NCBI RefSeq assembly: GCF_006345805.1
Contig: NC_043018.1
Span: 23,684,001-23,748,000, forward strand
Length of the DNA: 64,000 nt
From: Octopus sinensis
Taxonomy: Eukaryota
Reading direction: 5' to 3'
The notes under the pieces are model-generated. The model was not told the DNA's origin, made no database searches, and saw only the letters and a program-made list of their open reading frames with translations. The position numbers were made by a program, and so were the translations under genes. Of this stretch, positions 1-34,113 are shown one piece after another (the stretch's first letter is position 1; each line of letters opens with the position of its first letter).

Positions 1-700
1 GGAAGAGTGGAGAAAAGCAGTTTATAGTCAGTTATACCAACCCTAGTGTTTTACTGGTACTTTATTACATCAACCCTGAAAGGGCAAAAAGTGGGATCTG
101 AGTTCAAATTGTGCCGAGGTCAATTTTGCCTTTCCTCCTTTCAGGGTTGATAAAATAAGCAGCAGTGGAACACTGGGGTCAATGTAATTGACTAGTCCCC
201 TCCCACCAAATTTCAGGCCTTGTACCTACGGTCAAAAGGATTATTATTAATATTATAAGGGCAGTGGACCAGCAGGAAAGATACTTCGCAGCATTTGTTT
301 CAGTTCTTTACGTTTTATGTTCAAATCCCACTGAGGGAAAGTTCCCCTTTTGCTCTTTCAGGGCTGATGAAATAAACATATCAGGCCACAGCTAGATGCC
401 CCTCCTAATGCCAACCACTTTACAGAACATACTGGGTGCTTTATGCATGGCACCAGAACTGATGGGATTACCAAGTAACTTGCAAGACAAAGGGCTCCTT
501 TCAATTGCCTTCAACCAAATCCACTCACACTTGCCCAAGGTGCCATGTAATGGGACTGAACCTGAAACTGTGATTGAGAATCAAACTTCTTACCCACATA
601 GCCATGCCTGCATTTCATTTGCATATAATTAATGTACAAATTATTACTCATGGAACCCCTAGAAAACTGATGGAATCCCAGGCTTCTGAGGAAAGTTCAC

Positions 701-14712: not shown

Positions 14713-15636
14713 GTTTGTGTGTTTGTGTTTGTCCCACAAGCTTTGCTTGACAACCGATGCTGGTGTGTTTATGTCCCCGTTACTTAGCGGTTCGGCAAAA
14801 GAGACCGATAGAATAAGTACAAGGCTTTACAAAGAATAAGTCCTGGGGTAGATTTGTTCGACTAAAGGTGGTGCTCCAGCATGGCCACAGTCAAATGAGT
14901 GAAACAAATGAAAGAATAAAAGAATACAAATATAACAAAAAAAAACTGAATTTTTTTTTAAAAAGTCAAGAAGACTAGGCGCAGGAGTGGCTGTGTGGTA
15001 AGTAGCTTGCTAACCAGCCACATGGTTCTGGGTTCAGTCCCACTGCGTGGCATCTTGGGCAAGTGTCGTCTACTATAGCCCCGGGCCGACCAATGCCTTG
15101 TGAGTGGATTTGGTAGACGGAAACTGAAAGAAGCCTGTCGTATATATATATATATATGTATGCGTGTGTGTGTTTGTGTGTCTGTGTTTGTCCCCCTAGC
15201 ATTGCTTGACAACCGATGCTGGTGTGTTTACGTCCCCGTCACTTAGCGGTTCGGCAAAAGAGACCGATATAATAAGTACAGGGCTTACAAAGAATAAGTC
15301 CCGGGGTCGATTTGCTCGACTAAAGGCGGTGCTCCAGCATGGCCGCAGTCAAATGACTGAAACAAGTAAAAGAGTAAAAGAGTAAAAGAGTAAGACAGTA
15401 ATTTACCAATATATTTGTAGTCATAGATTTCTTCGGAACGTTTCTTTAGGTTTGTCCCTTCTTTGATGGTGCCTTCTTCACCTGTTTTAGCAGCAGCCGT
15501 TTTCTTCCCGGCCGCCTTGTTCCCTTTACCAGTTTTAACCTTTTTCAGGTCGACAGTCTGCAAGGATGCTTTACGCTGAACAACACGAAACAGTTTGGGA
15601 AAACGTGAACACTCGTGCAGTGCAAGAACAGTGTGA

Positions 15637-15676
<40 letters not shown>

Positions 15677-16122
15677 TGTGGTGGGGTTTACAAGTAAATG
15701 TGTGCAAGTGCATAAATGTGCAAATGTGCATGTGTGCATAGCTGCATGGACATAAGCAAGCATGTGTGTATATATATATATATATATATAATATTAATTA
15801 GAGACAAAACCACTATTTTGCAAAACAAACAAGGAAAGACTTAATCAATACATAAAATTTTAATAAAAAGTAAAAAAAAACCGCCACTACAATTGTTTCA
15901 TGTCTTGAACGACAATCTTCAGGTGGATTTCCGATTTTCAAGTCAGTTTCAAATTTTTACTTTTTATTAAAATTTTATGTATTGATTAAGTCTTTCCTTG
16001 TTTGTTTTGCAAAATAGTGGTTTTGTCTCTAATTAATATTATATAATATTTTACTATAAAATTGGATTTAATCCTAAATCTGATTTTTTCCCTGTAAATT
16101 TGGATTTATTCCTAATATTTAT

Positions 16123-16156
<34 letters not shown>

Positions 16157-19100
16157 ATAATAAAACAATACTGGGAGGATAAGAAACGGAACGAAGCGAC
16201 GAATCGAAACGAACCCGACGCGAAGCGCTGTCAGACAATAGTGTAATAAATAAAATATATGCATACATACAAACGTATATGTACGTACCTACATCTACAT
16301 GTATATATACTGTTGAGTTCTACATCTTTTTGTGGTGTCCTGTACGTATTTTTTTTTTTTTTTACTTGTTTCAGTCATTTGACTGTGGCCATGCTGGAGC
16401 ACCGCCTTTAGTCGAGCAACTCGACCCCGGGACTTATTCTTTTGTAAGCCCAGTACTTATTCTATCGGTCTCTTTTGCCGATATATTTATATATGCATGT
16501 ATATATACATGTAGATGTAGGTACGTACATATATGTTTGTATGTATGCATATATTTTATTTATTACACTATATATATATCATCATCATTTAACGTCCGCT
16601 TTCCATGCTAGCATGGGTTGGACGGTTTGACTGTGGGCTGGCGAACCAGATGGCTGCACCAGGCTCCAGTCTAGATCTGGCATATATATATCTATATATA
16701 TACATGTGTGTATGTGTGTGTGTGTGTGTTTATGTGCAAATGCATGGACATCTATGCATTTCTATGTATGTGTGCATATTTATGCGTGTGTGTGTGCATT
16801 TCCATATATTTGTGTGTGAGTGTGGATATGTATCTCTACACAAGTGTGTGTGTGTGTGTGAATGTGTGAGTGTGAACATGTGTATGTGTGTGTGTGTGTG
16901 TGTGTTGTGAATGTGTCTCTATGCAAGTGTGTGTGAGTGTGAGAATGTGTCTACGTAAGTGTGTGTGAGTGTATGTATGATCATATGTCTATGTATGTGT
17001 GTGCGTGTGTGTGTGTGTAGAAAATAAAGAATGTCAGGAGTTATGTGATGAATATATTTATTTCACCAATTGATATCCATAGGATATATTGGGCATATGT
17101 TGGTGTGTGTGTGTGGGTGTGTGTGCACGCATCTACATATGTGTGTGTGTGTGTGTGCACGCATCTACATATGCGTGTGTGTGTGTGCACGCATCTACAT
17201 ATGCGTGTGTGTGTGCACGCATCTACGTGTGTGTGTGTGTGGTGTGTGTGTGTGTCATCATCATTTAACATCCATCTTCCATGCACGCATGGGAAGGACA
17301 GGGTATCCCTGTTTCCTTCCCATCATGCTCTTGTCCTTTCCTTCTCACCCCTTCTGGTCCTTCTGATGCTGTTGTTCCTTTTATTTATTTTTTTTTTTTT
17401 ACCTCTTTTATCCCTTTTCTGGGTCACCTATCCAAATCTACATACACACATTTACTAATTACTCACTACACCTGCATTTCTGCCCCAATCTCTACCTGGA
17501 GACAGTGAAGTTTGATGCCTGCTCAATGGACTTCCAGGACTCTTGTCCACTGACTTATTCATAATAGTTTCTAATTCAGGTGCAAGGGTAGAGACAGCCA
17601 GTGCCATCTACCCTACTACTTCACTAGTACTTTATTTTATTGACCCCCAGAAGAACGAAACGTAAAGTTGACTTTAGTGGGATTTGAACTCAGAACATGA
17701 AGAATTCAAAGAAATATCGCAAGATATTTTTTTCCTGACACTTTAATGGCCCTGACAACTTGCCATCCTTTTTCGTCTAAATAACAGTAATAATCCTTTC
17801 TACTAAAGGAACAAGGCCTGAAATTTTGGGGGAGGGGACCAGTCAATTACATTGAACCCAGTGTTTCACTAGTTCTTATTTTATCAACCCAGAAGGATAA
17901 AAGGCAGAATCGACCTCGGCAGAATTTGAACTCAGATCGTGAAGACAGACGAAATGCTAGTAAGCATTTTGTCCAGTGTGCTAACAATTCTGCCAGCTCA
18001 CCATCTTAATAATCATAATATTTCTTCCTTCTTATTTTGGTACAAGGCTAGTCAATTTTAGAGGGGTGAAGTGGATTGCATTGACCCCAGTACATGCCTG
18101 GTACTATGCTTTATTGATCCTGAAAGGATGAAAGGCAAAGTCAGCCTCAACAACAACTGAATGAAGAACATTAAGCCAAAAGAAATACTGGTAAGAATTT
18201 TGTCCAGCAAGCTAACAAGACCACAAATTTTGGGACAAGGTTCAATCAAAATGATTCGACCCCAGTATTTTATTGGTATTTATTTTCTTGAAACTAAAAG
18301 AATAAAGGACCAAGTCAGCTACAGCAGAGTTCAAACACACACATCACATACATACACAGAGGGAGAGCGGGGTGCATATGCGTATGTGTACAAGCTTGTG
18401 CATGTTAGTTGCATATAAGGTAAACAGGATATGTTAATGTTTGAGAATGGACGGAAGCTCATAAGGATAATAAACAACAACAATGTTAATCCTTTCTCTG
18501 AATAATTAGATTCCCAAAACACATACAAAAAGCTATAAATTTTTGCTTGCTTTGCTTTGCTTCATGCTCTTGTTTGATGGGGTTGGGGGGTCATCCCAGG
18601 TTAGTGGTCCCGGAGACGTCATCATGCAGAGAACTGACCAGGTCCACCAGTGCTCTCCGTCGCTAGCAGTCCCATGCCAACCCTTCTGCAACCTCCAAGG
18701 TGATGTCAAGCCTCTGGAGATCTTCCCCCAGTCACATCCAGCCATCTGGTGTGGGGCCTACTTCAAGGCCTCTTGCAGCCCACAGCTGCTGCATCAAAAG
18801 AGACTAAAACCCTGGTAGGTTGACCTAGTGGGAGATGGAGGACACGTCTGCACCAGCGCATGCGATGGACAGCTACGAGGTGGGAGGCTGCAGGCTGATG
18901 CATGCGCATACAGTTCTTTGTTGGAAACATGATGGTACCATCTGATGCTCTTGATGGTTCTCAGGGCTCTGCTATTGAGGCTGCCGATCCTCTTTTCCAG
19001 GGTCTTCAAGAGGGGCCACATTTCTGCTCCATAGATAGCTTTTATTTATAGCTTTATGTGTGCCACAAGAATCCACTATTTCAAAAAAGAATTATTTTGC

Positions 19101-22100
19101 ATTCTCTCAAAAGTTTAGAAAATTCTTATAACAACAATGATGATGATGATGAGGCAATAATGGAAACAATGATGATGATAAAAGCAATGATTAGTATTAC
19201 AACAACGATGATGATGATGATGAAAATGTAAATCTACCTACTTTTTCTACAGGTTTAGATTTGGCTATGTCGTCAGCTTTTAATGACAACAACTTAAACT
19301 TGATGAGTTTGGCCAAAAGCTCACTAGGAATTGGTTCCTTGCTATCAATAAAGGCTTTACATGCCTCGCATACCTCAACATATTGAGGGGCATCTTTACC
19401 TCGACCTTTTGGATTGCCATAAACGTTTACCTAGAAAATAAGATGTACAATATTACATATATGTGTGTGTGATACCCCTTATTGGTCACAGCTAATACAA
19501 GGGAGATAATCATGTATTCACAATATTTGGTGGGATTTTGATAGTAACTTTGAAGTTTCACTCGATGACTTATTCAGACAGTTTGAATAAACCATGAGAT
19601 GAAACTCCAAAGTCACGTTCAGTAATAGTAGCGAGTCTTTTAGTCAGTTACTATATCTGGGGTTTTTTTATGAACATAAAAAACATTTTTGGCAGTGTGT
19701 GTGTGTGTGTCCTTGTCAGTGGTTTTCCTCCCCTCACACATTCACGACACCAACCATGTTCTTTGTTTATTTAATTCATCCCTTTCAACTCCTGTTCACC
19801 CTCATTATTAAATCTTTATACACTGTAATCCCACTACACAGCACACATACATACACATATATATATATATATATACATACACACGATGCACTTCTCTCAG
19901 TTTCCATCTATCAAATTCACTCACAAGGCTTCTGTTGTCCTGGGACTATAGTAGAAGACACTTGCCCACCAAGGTGCCATGCAGTGGAACCGAACCCAAG
20001 ATAACATGGTTGGAAAGCAAGCTCCTTAACCACACAGCCACATCTGCACCTATAACCATACATATCTGTATCTATTTATACATGATGCATATGCATTACA
20101 TGCATGCAAGCATGTGTATGTAACATGTATAGTGTGTGTGTGTGTGTGTGTGTGTGATATGTATGCATGCATGTGACAAACACGTTTATGACATGAATGT
20201 ATGTATATGTGATGTGTGTGATGCATGAGATGTGTTTATGATTATACATGATGCGTATGTGTTACATGCATGCATAGGTGTGTATGCAATGTGTCTATGT
20301 GACACTGTATGATTGTGTGTATGTAAAACATCCAATAACAGAAAACAATTGCTCCTAAAAACAAAAGCTTGAGCTAGTCGTTCAGGTAGACCCAAGAATC
20401 CCAAGATCTTAACCCTAACCTGACTGAAAGTGTTCGTCTAAACCAGTGATTCTCAATTAGGGTCCATATGACCCTTGGAAGGCCATACAAGATTTGGATC
20501 TTTTCAGTTTGAACGGCAGTTTTTTAAAATAATTTCCACGTAACTAAACACTTTTAAACTTCGTATACTGGTAGAATGTGTTTATAAAACATCTTTTTCT
20601 CTTGGCTTTATTGAGAAAATTCTATGGTTTGTAAGATATTTGCTGTTTTTTTTCTTCAATTTCTGCAATTTCAACCAATCAGTGACGTCTATTGAGTTAA
20701 AAAGCATTCTGCACCATATGAATATGTCCCTCGTTTAAGAAACAGATTGGGTTTATTTACATTTGTGAAGAAGAAAAGATACCCTTCCCCCCACCCCTAA
20801 CCCTAAAACAGATTGAAATGCAATAGATCGATACTAGGGTCATAATTATGGGTGACAATTTCATATGACACTGCTAGAAAAAACTGCCGTTCAAACCAAA
20901 ATGATTCCAAGATTTTGTTGTCGTTTAAATTTATGTACAATAAGCTACTTATATTTCTAAAATGTGAAGGCGCGTGGCTCAGTGGTTAGAGCGTCGAGCT
21001 TACGATTGTGAGGTTGTGAGCTCGAATCCCGGACAGGGCTGCGTGTTGTGTTCTTGAGCAAGGCACTTTATTTCATGTTGCTCCAGTTCACTCAGCTGTA
21101 GAAATGAGTTGCGACGTTACAGGTGCCAAGATGTATCGGCCCTTGCCTTTTCCTTGGACAACATCGGTGACGTGGAGAGGGGAGGCTGGTATGCATGGGC
21201 GACTGCTGGTCTTCCATGAAACAACCTTGCCCAGACTTGTGCCTCAGAGGGTAACTCTCTAGGTGCAAAACCCATGGTCAGTGTCTGACCGAAGGGGGTC
21301 ACCACCACCATTTCTAAAATACACCAAATATCTTAATTTCTTATTTATACAATTCCTAATAATATATTTGTTGTTGTTGTTTTTTTTTTGCATCTCAGAA
21401 ACTTTAACCCTTTAGTGTTTAAACCGGCCATACCAGGCCAAAATTGTCTTCCAGTTTTATGCTCAAACCAGCCAGCTCTGACCTCTCACACCTACCCTAC
21501 AAAGTCAGGGGCATCATCAAAATCTGAGTTACAAGATGCTGTACAATTAATTTAAAACAATGTAATTAAACAGGCTTTACATTTGACAGATTAATCTGAA
21601 TGCTAAAGGGTTAAATGTACTTGGGTATAGAATTCCAGGTACAAGTAGAATACATATAGCTGTTTATGTACCAAGTTTAATTCTACCACCACAATTAAAG
21701 ATATGGTTGCAGACTCAAAGACTTGGATTTCCTAACAATATTTGATTTTAAAAAATATAACAGGAGTTTTTTTAATTATCGAATGGCTATGATGGTCCAC
21801 CCGAGTAAAATAGCAATCGAAGGGTGTCCACAGGTAAAAAATGATTGAGAAACACTGGGGTAAACAAAGGTAACCAAAAAGAGAAAAGGAGAGAGGAGAG
21901 ACAGACAGACAGACAGAGCAGTGTCATCAGAGACTTGAGCTCACTGAAGAATTATCTGGGAGTCTTACAAGTCAAGGATCCTAATTATGATCTCTGTATG
22001 CTGTGGTTTACTGTCAATAAATGTGGTTTAGTGGTTAGGGTGTTGGACTCATGATCGTAAGATTGTGGTTTCGATTCCTGGACCAGGTGATCTGTTGTGT

Positions 22101-29606: not shown

Positions 29607-29995
29607 GGCGAAGGAGTGGCTGTGTGGTAAGATGTTTGCTTCCAGCTACATGGTTTCGGGTTCAGTCCCACTGCGTGGCACCTTCAGTAGATTTCTTCTG
29701 CTATAACTCTAGGCTGACCAAAGCCTTGTGAGTGGATTTGCTAAACGGAAACTAAAAGAAACCCGTCGTATATATGTGTGTGTGTGTGTTTATCCCCTAC
29801 CGCCGTTTAACAACCGGTGTTGGTTTGTTTACATCTCTTTGACTTAGCGGTTCAGTGAAAAGAAGTTGATAGAGTAAGTACCAGGCTTTAAAAGAAACGG
29901 TAAATTTTTTTGAGTGACTCAAAAAATTTACCGTTTAGGGTGATGCCCCAGCATGGCCGCACACTAACAACGACTGCAACAACATAAAAGACAAA
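29607..29995 (+). mobile_element. Family A SINE immediately upstream of MECR
   Basis: Family head, core and tail; ends about 40 nt before the MECR ATG. Confidence 0.8.
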
Positions 29996-30035
29996 GTTTA
30001 CGAAGGGAGATAACTCTTATATTACTTCTTTGAAC

Positions 30036-31157
30036 ATGGCGGCTACGGTATTGAGAAACCTGGTCCGGGTCAGTGTTATTCCCAATTACTCGATAATCAG
30101 ACATTCTTGTTCACGTTTATTCTCTAGTAATGCACGAACATCGTTTGCTGTCATTTACGAACAGAATGGAGATCCTAAAACGGTATTGAAAAGTAAGGAG
30201 CATCCATTGCCCTCTAAAATCAAGGACAACGAAATTTTGGTGAAAATGTTGATGTCACCTATTAACCCAGCGGACATCAATATGATTGAAGGAACGTACA
30301 TGATAAAGCCACCACTTCCTGCTATCGCTGGAAATGAAGGTGTCGGTGAGGTGGTGGAAACCGGTGATAACGTTAAAAAGTTTAAACCTGGAGACTGGAT
30401 CCTCCCTCTGAAAACAGGTTCTGGTACATGGCAAACACATGCAGTCTACAGTGAATCCGACGTACAGAAGATCCCGAACGACATCCCGCCCTTAGTAGCA
30501 GCTACCATCGCTGTTAATCCTTGTACTGCTTATAGAATGATGAAAGATTTCGTCAAACTTGAACCTGGCGACGTGATTATTCAAAATGGTGCTAACAGTG
30601 GAGTTGGTCAAGCTGTTATTCAGTTGGCTTCCGCATGGGGGCTTCGGACCGTCAACATAGTTCGAACGAGACCTGACATCGATGCACTAACTGCGGACCT
30701 GAAATCACAAGGTGCTACCCATGTTGTCACTGAGGAATTCTGTCGTACCCCTGATATGAAAACTTTGATTAAGGATCTTGGCAAAGCACCGAAATTGGGC
30801 TTTAACTGCGTTGGCGGAAAAGCGGCCACCGAACTACTTCGAAACCTCGCCCCTAACGGTTACATGGTTACCTATGGAGGTATGTCTAAACAACCAGTTA
30901 CTGTTCCTACTGGGGTGTTTATTTTTAAATCCTTAAAGCTGGTTGGTTTTTGGATGAGCCAGTGGAATACTGACAATTTCAACACACCCCAGAAAACCGA
31001 AATGATGCTAGACCTTTGTCATCTGGCACGCCAGTCTAAACTATTAGCGCCAATTTCTGACCTGGTTCCTATCACATCCTTTGATAAAGCAATTGCTGAG
31101 GCACTCAGGGGATTTAGCAAGAAACAAATTCTGGTTATGGATAAAACTTTATTGTGA
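30036..31157 (+). CDS. MECR: Mitochondrial trans-2-enoyl-CoA/ACP reductase (MDR superfamily), intronless, 373 aa
   Basis: Uninterrupted ORF from aacATGG. R/S/L-rich acid-free N-terminal transit peptide; SPINPADINMIEGTY (catalytic Tyr), GNEGVGEV, ATIAVNPCTAYRMMKDF, QNGANSGVGQAVIQ (NADPH loop), NCVGGK, MVTYGGMSKQP, GFWMSQW. Confidence 0.96.
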   Translation: MAATVLRNLVRVSVIPNYSIIRHSCSRLFSSNARTSFAVIYEQNGDPKTVLKSKEHPLPSKIKDNEILVKMLMSPINPADINMIEGTYMIKPPLPAIAGNEGVGEVVETGDNVKKFKPGDWILPLKTGSGTWQTHAVYSESDVQKIPNDIPPLVAATIAVNPCTAYRMMKDFVKLEPGDVIIQNGANSGVGQAVIQLASAWGLRTVNIVRTRPDIDALTADLKSQGATHVVTEEFCRTPDMKTLIKDLGKAPKLGFNCVGGKAATELLRNLAPNGYMVTYGGMSKQPVTVPTGVFIFKSLKLVGFWMSQWNTDNFNTPQKTEMMLDLCHLARQSKLLAPISDLVPITSFDKAIAEALRGFSKKQILVMDKTLL

Positions 31158-33318: not shown

Positions 33319-33837
33319 CATATCTGTAGAACTATTCCAACTTTTGATATGAATGATAAAAGACAAGCAATTAACCTAGAAATAGAACAATTTTATTATT
33401 CCTCAATCTCATACAGCATTTGGTTACCAACTTGATTCTGAAAGATACAAATTTTTTTCCTTATTTATTTATTTATTAATATTATTATTTGTAACATTAG
33501 CATTATTCTTTTATTACATTAATATATATATATATATAATTAGTGAATGGAAGAAATGGAGCTGAACGAAGATTCTTCCATTCACTAATTATATTAAACT
33601 TCAATTATCCGCGCCAACGCATGGTTGCAACACCCTATGGTCATAACTCCAACCGTGTTTTTTCTGCTGTGATTTTTGCTACCCAGGTATCGGTTAAACT
33701 TTTGAATAATCCGTAACAAGATAATTCATCTTTCCATTTCAACAAATATATATATATATATATATACCGGAGTAAACACATAAATGTGAAACAAGGTGGA
33801 AAAAAGAGTACTCAAATACCAGTGGTAGAGTAATATG

Positions 33838-33995
33838 CTTTATTTAAAGCAGCAGAAAATTCAACAAAATCTGTTACTCTGAGTTTCTCGTTGCCGTTCA
33901 TCAGACAGTTTTTGCTAGCAAAAACTGTCTGATGAACGGCAACGAGAAACTCAGAGTAACAGATTTTGTTGAATTTTCTGCTGCTTTAAATAAAG
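33838..33995. repeat. Perfect 158-bp palindrome
   Basis: 79-nt arms, no spacer, centre GCT|AGC at 33916/33917. Confidence 0.95.
33921..33967 (+). ncRNA. Minimal type I hammerhead ribozyme motif (mirror copy on minus strand at 33866-33912)
   Basis: AAAACTGT-CTGATGA-ACG GCAA CGA-GAA-ACTCAGAGT-A^ACAGATTTT; helix II is short and opens with an A.A mismatch. Confidence 0.7.
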
Positions 33996-34113
33996 TATAT
34001 ATATATATATAAAGTTAATCCAAACAAGAAAACAAAAACAAAAAAACAACAACGCAAGGACGTGGAACAAATAAAGTATTATTGGATACTCAGGAAAGAA
34101 GGGAAGAAGGAGG

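What the first reader, a model, noticed from the sequence alone, without database searches (positions are those of the whole stretch)
15784..16130. Hammerhead displayed in the loop of a ~93-bp inverted repeat in SPAG17 intron 3, in the sense orientation
Seen: arms about 15784-15876 and 15954-16047 pair almost perfectly. The ~77-nt loop holds CCAC-CTGAAGA-TTGTCGTTCAAGACAT-GAAACAATTGTA^GTGG on the minus strand, the strand of SPAG17 pre-mRNA, about 310 nt upstream of the exon 4 acceptor. Unlike the 33.9-kb case the ribozyme has no antisense partner. Inference: it could cut the nascent intron.
Basis: partly seen in the sequence, partly recalled or inferred. Interest (0 to 1): 0.72.

Follow-up and report, generated by a model that had tools for sequence, protein, structure and literature searches.

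The report
Spliced Penelope retrotransposon leader copy
The hairpin with a ribozyme motif in its loop is one of well over a thousand short, head-to-head copies of a Penelope-type jumping gene; it lacks the intron found in the long copies, so it was likely copied from the element's spliced messenger RNA and likely does nothing to the host gene, but the family is a useful record of how these elements move.

Summary
Observation confirmed: 92-nt perfect arms and a minimal type-I hammerhead on the minus strand, inside an intron of a SPAG17-like gene. It is not a locus-specific device. It belongs to a genome-wide family whose long copies carry an RT plus GIY-YIG-type ORF with Hydra-clade Penelope-like (PLE) motifs. 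Short copies sit in (TA)n as head-to-head pairs, with an ~80-nt tail on exactly one arm (60 of 61 pairs) and a variable junction. 23 of 61 pairs have the hammerhead in both arms, so 'no antisense partner' is a truncation accident. Unexpected result: the window copy joins an 18-nt exon to the hammerhead exon exactly across a ~1.04-kb GT-AG intron present in long copies. The genome holds 1,714 spliced versus 1,414 intron-retaining junctions, and paired arms agree in splice donor (34 of 34). This points to twin priming at two internal sites of one spliced, uncleaved sense mRNA, against the published antisense-template idea for intron retention. Cleavage of host pre-mRNA is unlikely (2-bp helix III, one copy only, predicted active fraction ~3e-4) but untested.

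The parts
15785..15953 (-). Tail-less arm: spliced 5' leader of the PLE mRNA, from about +7 of the inferred start to the first (upstream) 3' end
   Evidence: nt 1-18 match parent exon 1 at 100%, nt 19-169 match parent exon 2 at 98% (L211, L213); mapped +7..+176
15936..15953 (-). Remnant of PLE exon 1, ending at the alternative donor used by this subfamily
   Evidence: in L211/L213 these 18 nt are followed by GTATGT and a 1,038/1,030-nt intron ending in AG
15935..15936 (-). Exact splice junction of the PLE 5' UTR intron
   Evidence: 1,714 such junctions genome-wide
15884..15926 (-). Minimal type-I hammerhead: helix I 4 bp, CUGAAGA, helix II 4 bp flanked by U.U, GAAA, helix III 2 bp with palindromic AAUU loop; predicted cut 15888/15887
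   Evidence: no Rfam match
15954..16045 (+). Inverted arm, 5'-truncated at about +81 (just 3' of the hammerhead)
16046..16125 (+). ~80-nt tail, on this arm only; in long copies the ORF begins about 50 nt after it
15769..15790 (.). (TA)n target, left side
16121..16158 (.). (TA)n target, right side
15407..15557 (-). Host exon (SPAG17-like gene) downstream of the insertion
   Evidence: open frame; contigs of two runs guessed RNA end at its borders; exons further downstream match SPAG17
19242..19430 (-). Candidate upstream host exon bounding the intron
   Evidence: AG/GT borders and in-frame join; no PDB match; likeness to SPAG17 is recalled

Best explanation
The feature is a short head-to-head insertion of a Penelope-like retrotransposon with Hydra-clade motifs; it lacks the element's 5' UTR intron and was likely reverse-transcribed from the spliced mRNA leader. 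Shown: it matches the terminal repeat (pLTR) of ORF-bearing long copies, sits in (TA)n, has the tail on one arm only, and crosses an exact GT-AG junction. Inferred mechanism: transcription starts at an initiator-like TCACTTC in the pLTR and the intron is spliced out. The element's RT/endonuclease nicks both strands of (TA)n. The two ends prime cDNA at two internal sites of the same uncleaved RNA (tail start and tail end). Each cDNA runs toward the nearby 5' end or stops early, and the two are joined head to head. Here one cDNA reached +7 and the other stopped at +81, which leaves the hammerhead unpaired in the 'loop'. The hammerhead is the element's own passenger and is likely inactive in the host pre-mRNA.
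For: Family: 1,776 candidates. Parent L160/L161: pLTR + tail, then ORF pieces with DKT, FDIPMG/YRDD-type RT motifs, CxCx5C linker, YIGST, CYLC and CRH, then a second pLTR 7.3 kb on; kb-long inverted arms of 4.8 and 5.6 kb. The EN piece is 37% identical over 91 aa (E 5e-16) to a GIY-YIG-hitting ORF; Atlas neighbours of the RT piece score 0.96-0.97 (HTH_animal 26-28% of members; RVT_1 42% at rank 20). An ORF with DKT also lies in the window's own subfamily (L212). Anatomy: of 72 sites, 61 simple head-to-head pairs, 60 with one tail, 1 with none, none with two. Splicing. Spliced 1,714 vs intron-retaining 1,414 exact matches, controls 0. In the first 100 spliced rows only the two donor positions occur (87 and 13). 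One template: 34 of 34 spliced pairs agree in donor and subfamily, and 0 of 89 spliced rows have an intron-retaining junction within 15 kb. Two primings: in the window and in 6 of 16 chromosome-order pairs neither arm contains the other; in 4 of 16 the tail arm stops within 25 nt of the first end. 5' ends: 81 of 128 arms end between -14 and +11 of the initiator-like A. Matches in vitro two-site internal initiation, two-strand extension and uncleaved template (PMC11167929).
Against: Pfam does not hit the five parent ORF pieces tested, and no phylogeny was built. The parent ORFs examined are broken into pieces. The start site is inferred from cDNA ends only, and L168 is a spliced copy that extends further upstream. 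The 72 sites are not a random sample (30 picked for likeness to the window, 21 for the loop, 21 for carrying the spliced junction). Concordance of arms could also come from two RNAs of one source locus and one compartment. Some short copies could descend from intron-less genomic masters. No target-site duplication can be read in (TA)n.
Confidence: 0.85

Rival explanations
1. The hammerhead cleaves nascent SPAG17 pre-mRNA in this intron and affects its expression.
For: Core complete and in sense; helix I predicted 70% formed, and the long arms insulate the loop from flanking sequence. Free-energy models ignore tertiary contacts and protein help.
Against: Active fold about 3e-4 in all four contexts, 4.9 kcal/mol above the ensemble; a dimer with one active core is -18.7 vs -24.2 for two monomer folds. 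One copy of the motif in the window. U.U instead of the usual G-C next to the core. The insertion is young (98% to parents) and one of thousands. By eye, 24 of 32 family junctions run through the cut site. Contigs of two runs guessed RNA are spliced at the next exon.
Confidence: 0.05
2. The short copies are a non-autonomous, intron-less PLE derivative (SINE- or retrozyme-like) that multiplies from its own genomic masters, not directly from spliced mRNA of long copies.
For: Intron-less copies with upstream sequence exist (L168, four arms); non-autonomous PLE derivatives are described (bioRxiv 10.64898/2026.07.22.740005, abstract and first part).
Against: Spliced copies occur in several subfamilies, each matching an intron-bearing long form in its diagnostic bases, and with two different donors, so the intron was lost repeatedly. 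No head-to-tail arrays of the short unit were seen among 72 sites.
Confidence: 0.15
3. The inverted repeat arises by self-priming (fold-back), on an antisense template as proposed in PMC3846280.
For: Some junctions are near-perfect palindromes with both arms ending at the same base; arms are concordant.
Against: An antisense RNA would keep the intron, yet 1,714 junctions are spliced in sense. Fold-back needs one arm to be contained in the other, which fails in the window (7-176 vs 81-252) and in 6 of 16 chromosome-order pairs. It may still apply to long, intron-retaining copies.
Confidence: 0.07
4. A MITE or fold-back DNA transposon with fixed terminal inverted repeats that captured a hammerhead.
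For: Short, AT-rich, non-coding, long inverted arms, in (TA)n.
Against: The inner junction differs from copy to copy, the tail is on either arm, a splice junction is present and the parent encodes RT.
Confidence: 0.01

Closest known systems
Hydra clade of C-terminal EN+ Penelope-like elements (PMC8557442)
   Same: DKT, CxCx5C linker, CxxC and CxH around E and N, hammerhead in the pLTR, (TA)n target, inverted 5'-truncated copy, tail at one end
   Different: Unit about 7.3 kb with a long repetitive 3' region and a 1.0-1.9-kb 5' UTR intron (described members generally <3 kb); tail ~80 nt rather than 30-40; KWK where RWK is described; N-rich stretch in the ORF
Penelope of Drosophila virilis (PMC2377424, PMC4209133)
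   Same: Start site in the pLTR, short first exon, 5' UTR intron ending just before hammerhead helix I, small palindromic helix III
   Different: Described genomic copies retain the intron; here more than half of the junctions counted are spliced
Poseidon PAc of Anolis carolinensis in vitro (PMC11167929)
   Same: Two internal RT start sites bounding the tail near the ORF start, both strands extended, AT-rich target, uncleaved RNA as template
   Different: That work does not address spliced templates or the origin of head-to-head pairs (no 'spliced', and 'intron' only in references); here the tail ends about 50 nt before the ORF
PLE minimal hammerheads / non-LTR retrozymes (PMC4209133; bioRxiv 10.64898/2026.07.22.740005)
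   Same: Type-I motif, 4-bp helix I, unpaired base before helix II, palindromic loop 3; opposite-strand pairs 100-700 bp apart already noted
   Different: No head-to-tail arrays of the unit; no G10.1-C11.1 pair
LINE-1 twin priming (recalled, not read here)
   Same: Two primings on one RNA give an inverted 5' part joined by microhomology
   Different: Here both start sites are fixed and internal, and the two cDNAs usually overlap, giving an inverted duplication

Membership tests
Penelope-like elements (EN+) | Single ORF with RT and C-terminal GIY-YIG endonuclease between pLTRs | tested here: met
   Long copies L160/L161 and L158/L159; EN piece 37% to a GIY-YIG-hitting ORF; no direct Pfam hit; ORF in pieces
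Penelope-like elements (EN+) | Partial tandem plus inverted 5'-truncated copy | tested here: met
   4.8- and 5.6-kb inverted arms and a direct pLTR; 61 of 72 short sites head-to-head
Penelope-like elements (EN+) | Tail at only one end | tested here: met
   60 of 61 pairs
Penelope-like elements (EN+) | Hammerhead in the pLTR | tested here: met
Penelope-like elements (EN+) | Intron retained after retrotransposition | tested here: inconclusive
   Retained in 1,414 junctions, lost in 1,714, including the window copy
Hydra clade | DKT, CxCx5C linker, CxxC and CxH motifs | tested here: met
   read in translations; definition from PMC8557442 section 11
Hydra clade | N-terminal RWK motif | tested here: inconclusive
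   KWK at the likely place
Hydra clade | Insertion into (TA)n | tested here: met
Hydra clade | Generally short (<3 kb) | tested here: not met
   hammerhead-to-hammerhead 7,299 nt in L160/L161; ORF region about 2.5 kb
Hydra clade | Placement in an RT tree | not tested
   no reference Hydra-clade sequences were at hand
Type-I hammerhead ribozyme | Core CUGANGA / GAAA / UH with three helices | tested here: met
   across 118 family motifs that pass the descriptor, variation is mostly in N7, loop II, loop III and the bases flanking helix II (core required by the descriptor)
Type-I hammerhead ribozyme | Self-cleavage | not testable with these tools
   predicted active fraction ~3e-4
Type-I hammerhead ribozyme | Match to an Rfam hammerhead model | tested here: not met
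Non-LTR retrozyme | Head-to-tail tandem units, each with a hammerhead | tested here: not met
   not seen among 72 short sites
MITE | Fixed terminal inverted repeats and fixed interior | tested here: not met

The most novel reading that the evidence does not exclude
This family is a genomic record that Penelope-like elements copy spliced sense mRNA by twin priming at the two tail boundaries of one RNA. More than a thousand intron-less 'strong-stop' leader pairs mark the start site and both RT start sites, while long copies keep the intron. That would explain the head-to-head repeat and the one-sided tail in one step, and would turn the intron-retention puzzle into a question of which RNA (spliced leader or unspliced read-through pLTR) is primed.
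Probability: 0.55. Interest if true: 0.7.

Novelty: new variant of a known kind. Interest (0 to 1): 0.5.

Why it matters
The locus itself is an ordinary young transposon insertion, and the host-cutting idea should be dropped unless an assay says otherwise. The family matters for an open question: how PLEs make tandem/inverted structures and why they keep introns (called unknown in PMC8557442; an antisense self-priming model is offered in PMC3846280 as needing tests). Exact splice junctions in both arms, a one-tail rule and non-nested arms give testable constraints. They extend the in vitro two-site initiation result (PMC11167929) to a genome. It also warns that lone intronic hammerheads in hairpin loops in such genomes are expected by the thousand.

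Tried and rejected
Rfam: no hammerhead match, only chance miRNA-type hairpin hits. A search of the own genome by a recalled Pfam accession was not possible, as the family is not in that library. A pattern search for sequence continuing past the tail (156 matches) and two follow-up regions did not reach the parent; one was a minisatellite of the tail end. Two GIY-YIG ORFs lying near family copies belong to other PLE families: their 3' regions do not lead into this element. Pfam did not hit 5 of 5 parent ORF pieces. Test for cDNA ends at the hammerhead cut site: of 40 rows, 32 looked like family junctions by eye (8 set aside; control 3 matches); 4 are compatible with an end at the cut, but all 4 coincide with a 4-nt microhomology to the leader's 5' end, so no evidence of cleavage. 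Sequencing runs: no RNA holder listed on record; all four runs laid are contigs, and cover of the element comes from many copies, so ends, strand and locus-specific cleavage cannot be read. The folding value for L164 is invalid (1-nt deletion broke the constraint) and was ignored. The candidate upstream host exon had no PDB match. Earlier scan notes: nothing.

Full report
Observation. The arms are real: 15785-15876 and 15954-16045, 92 nt, 100% complementary. The 77-nt loop holds a minimal type-I hammerhead on the minus strand, with the predicted cut between 15888 and 15887; a descriptor scan finds only it and the two motifs at 33.9 kb in the window. Rfam has no hammerhead match. Two downstream minus-strand exons match SPAG17 in the PDB, so the motif is in sense. 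Contigs of two runs guessed to be RNA cover the adjacent exon 15407-15555/15557 only, which puts the acceptor 330 nt from the cut site. The intron number was not established; a candidate upstream exon lies at 19430-19242.

It is a repeat. The stretch has 1,776 first-look candidates in the genome and the loop alone 1,498. Aligned copies all sit in (TA)n and share outer ends, but the inner junction differs in each. I mapped 72 distinct sites (30 chosen by likeness to the window, 21 by the loop, 21 in chromosome order among spliced junctions) on one intron-less copy. Result: 61 simple head-to-head pairs, 6 single arms, 5 other. Of the 61 pairs, 60 carry the ~80-nt tail on exactly one arm, 1 on neither, none on both. 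The hammerhead is whole in one arm in 36, in both in 23, in neither in 2. The window's 'loop display' is therefore the case where one arm stops at about +81, just 3' of the motif.

The parent. A pattern at the 5' limit of short copies (762 matches) showed a shared upstream sequence in most of the first 100 rows. Fetched long copies show a pLTR with hammerhead and tail, an ORF starting about 50 nt after the tail, a long 3' region and a second pLTR 7.3 kb on, with inverted arms of 4.8 and 5.6 kb. The ORF is in pieces in the copies read. It shows DKT, RT motifs FDIPMG and YRDD (YRYD in one copy), an N-rich stretch, CxCx5C, YIGST, CYLC and CRH. These fit the Hydra clade as defined in PMC8557442, except for length and KWK for RWK. 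Pfam misses these pieces. The EN piece is 37% identical to another family's GIY-YIG-hitting ORF, and Atlas neighbours carry HTH_animal (26-28%) or RVT_1 (42%, rank 20). The window's own subfamily has long copies too (L211-L215, 95-99% to the window; ORF with DKT in L212).

The window copy is spliced. In long copies the first exon ends at GTAAGT, or, in subfamilies where that donor is mutated, 4 nt later at GTATGT; the intron (about 1.0-1.9 kb to the nearest first exon) ends in TTTTAG directly before the hammerhead exon. In the window, 15953-15936 equals that first exon (18 of 18) and 15935 onward equals the second (98%), across a 1,038-nt intron in L211. Genome-wide, exact patterns give 1,714 spliced and 1,414 intron-retaining junctions, reversed controls 0. 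In the first 100 spliced rows the spacer is 0 nt (87) or 4 nt (13), the two donors, never another of the allowed 0-5. Spliced forms occur in several subfamilies with matching diagnostic bases, so the loss was repeated. 81 of 128 arms end within -14..+11 of the A in TCACTTC. By eye, 16 of the first 100 rows stop exactly there, 3 a few bases upstream, and the rest continue into parent sequence. The same TCACT initiator-like word is noted for a rotifer Penelope (PMC3846280). The start site is inferred, not measured, and L168 is a spliced copy that starts further upstream.

Mechanism (inferred). PMC11167929 shows in vitro that a PLE protein cuts and extends both strands of AT-rich DNA, starts RT at two internal sites bounding the tail, and uses uncleaved RNA. 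Applied to a spliced leader of about 250 nt, this predicts a head-to-head pair with one tail and 5' ends at the start site, as seen. One template is suggested by 34 of 34 spliced pairs agreeing in donor and subfamily, and by 0 of 89 spliced rows having an intron-retaining junction within 15 kb (first 100 rows against 99 of the first 100). Two separate primings are required where neither arm contains the other: the window (7-176 and 81-252) and 6 of 16 chromosome-order pairs; in 4 of 16 the tail arm stops within 25 nt of the first end, as if blocked by the other cDNA. This argues against fold-back on an antisense template (PMC3846280) for short copies; long copies remain open. Two RNAs from one locus, or intron-less masters, are not excluded.

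Does it cut the host RNA? Helix III is 2 bp with a palindromic loop, the dimer-type design. The window holds one copy of this family's motif. The active fold is predicted at about 3e-4 with or without arms and flanks, and lower in two parent pLTRs; these models omit tertiary contacts. A PLE minimal hammerhead showed no monomer cleavage (PMC4209133), and another needed the PLE protein (PMC11167929). Family cDNAs mostly run through the cut site: 24 of 32 junction rows by eye, with 4 compatible ends explained by microhomology. No data here test cleavage at this locus.

Literature seen: PMC8557442 (outline, section 11, passages); PMC11167929 (parts 1-2 of 4, passages); PMC4209133 (parts 1-2 of 4); bioRxiv 10.64898/2026.07.22.740005 (part 1 of 5); PMC3846280, PMC2377424, PMC13282606 (passages). 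No supplements were opened; those of PMC8557442 and PMC11167929 may list this family or intron-less copies. Searches turned up no report of large numbers of spliced PLE leader copies or of twin priming in PLEs, but subscription papers (such as the 2003 and 2005 Penelope papers cited there) are outside the library. LINE-1 twin priming and the YYANWYY initiator consensus are recalled.

Verdict. The family-level finding, spliced head-to-head leader copies obeying a one-tail rule, is a new-looking and testable constraint on PLE retrotransposition. Interest 0.5.

Noticed in passing
window 33835-34000: A second hammerhead family with both arms complete; 1,910 pattern matches, with long paired copies and many short ones whose 5' ends cluster just upstream of the motif. 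ORF and splicing not checked.
   Followed up: partly
window 33520-33745: Very short inverted arms plus a tail in (TA)n, 78-88% like the 3' end of another ORF-bearing Hydra-like PLE family (L125-L154), which shows two alternative 3' ends and a hammerhead-like motif with a long helix II.
   Followed up: partly
window 16145-16571: Adjacent repeat of a third family (1,031 candidates): 73-nt inverted arms, an extension on one arm, and a SINE-like fragment between the arms. Same anatomy; parent not found.
   Followed up: partly
L091 8100-9470 (G000:C13): About 34 tandem copies of the last ~40 nt of the tail inside a long (TA)-rich tract, suggesting repeated re-priming at the second start site.
   Followed up: partly
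L160/L161 9486-11521 and other long copies: The 3' region of long copies holds ~1-kb tandem units, each with the first-exon and donor motif.
   Followed up: no
L095-L124: A very abundant young PLE with a CxxxxCxxC finger before GIY-YIG (20,564 candidates, several 784-aa open frames); no hammerhead core found in the 3' regions printed.
   Followed up: partly
window 29988-31154 (+): Intron-less 389-aa frame of a zinc-binding-dehydrogenase-type oxidoreductase (PF00107, PF08240), divergent from the SPAG17-like gene; possibly a retrogene.
   Followed up: no
L160 7294-7938: Asparagine-rich stretch between RT and EN in the parent ORF, like the N-rich inserts described for rotifer Penelope (PMC3846280).
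   Followed up: no
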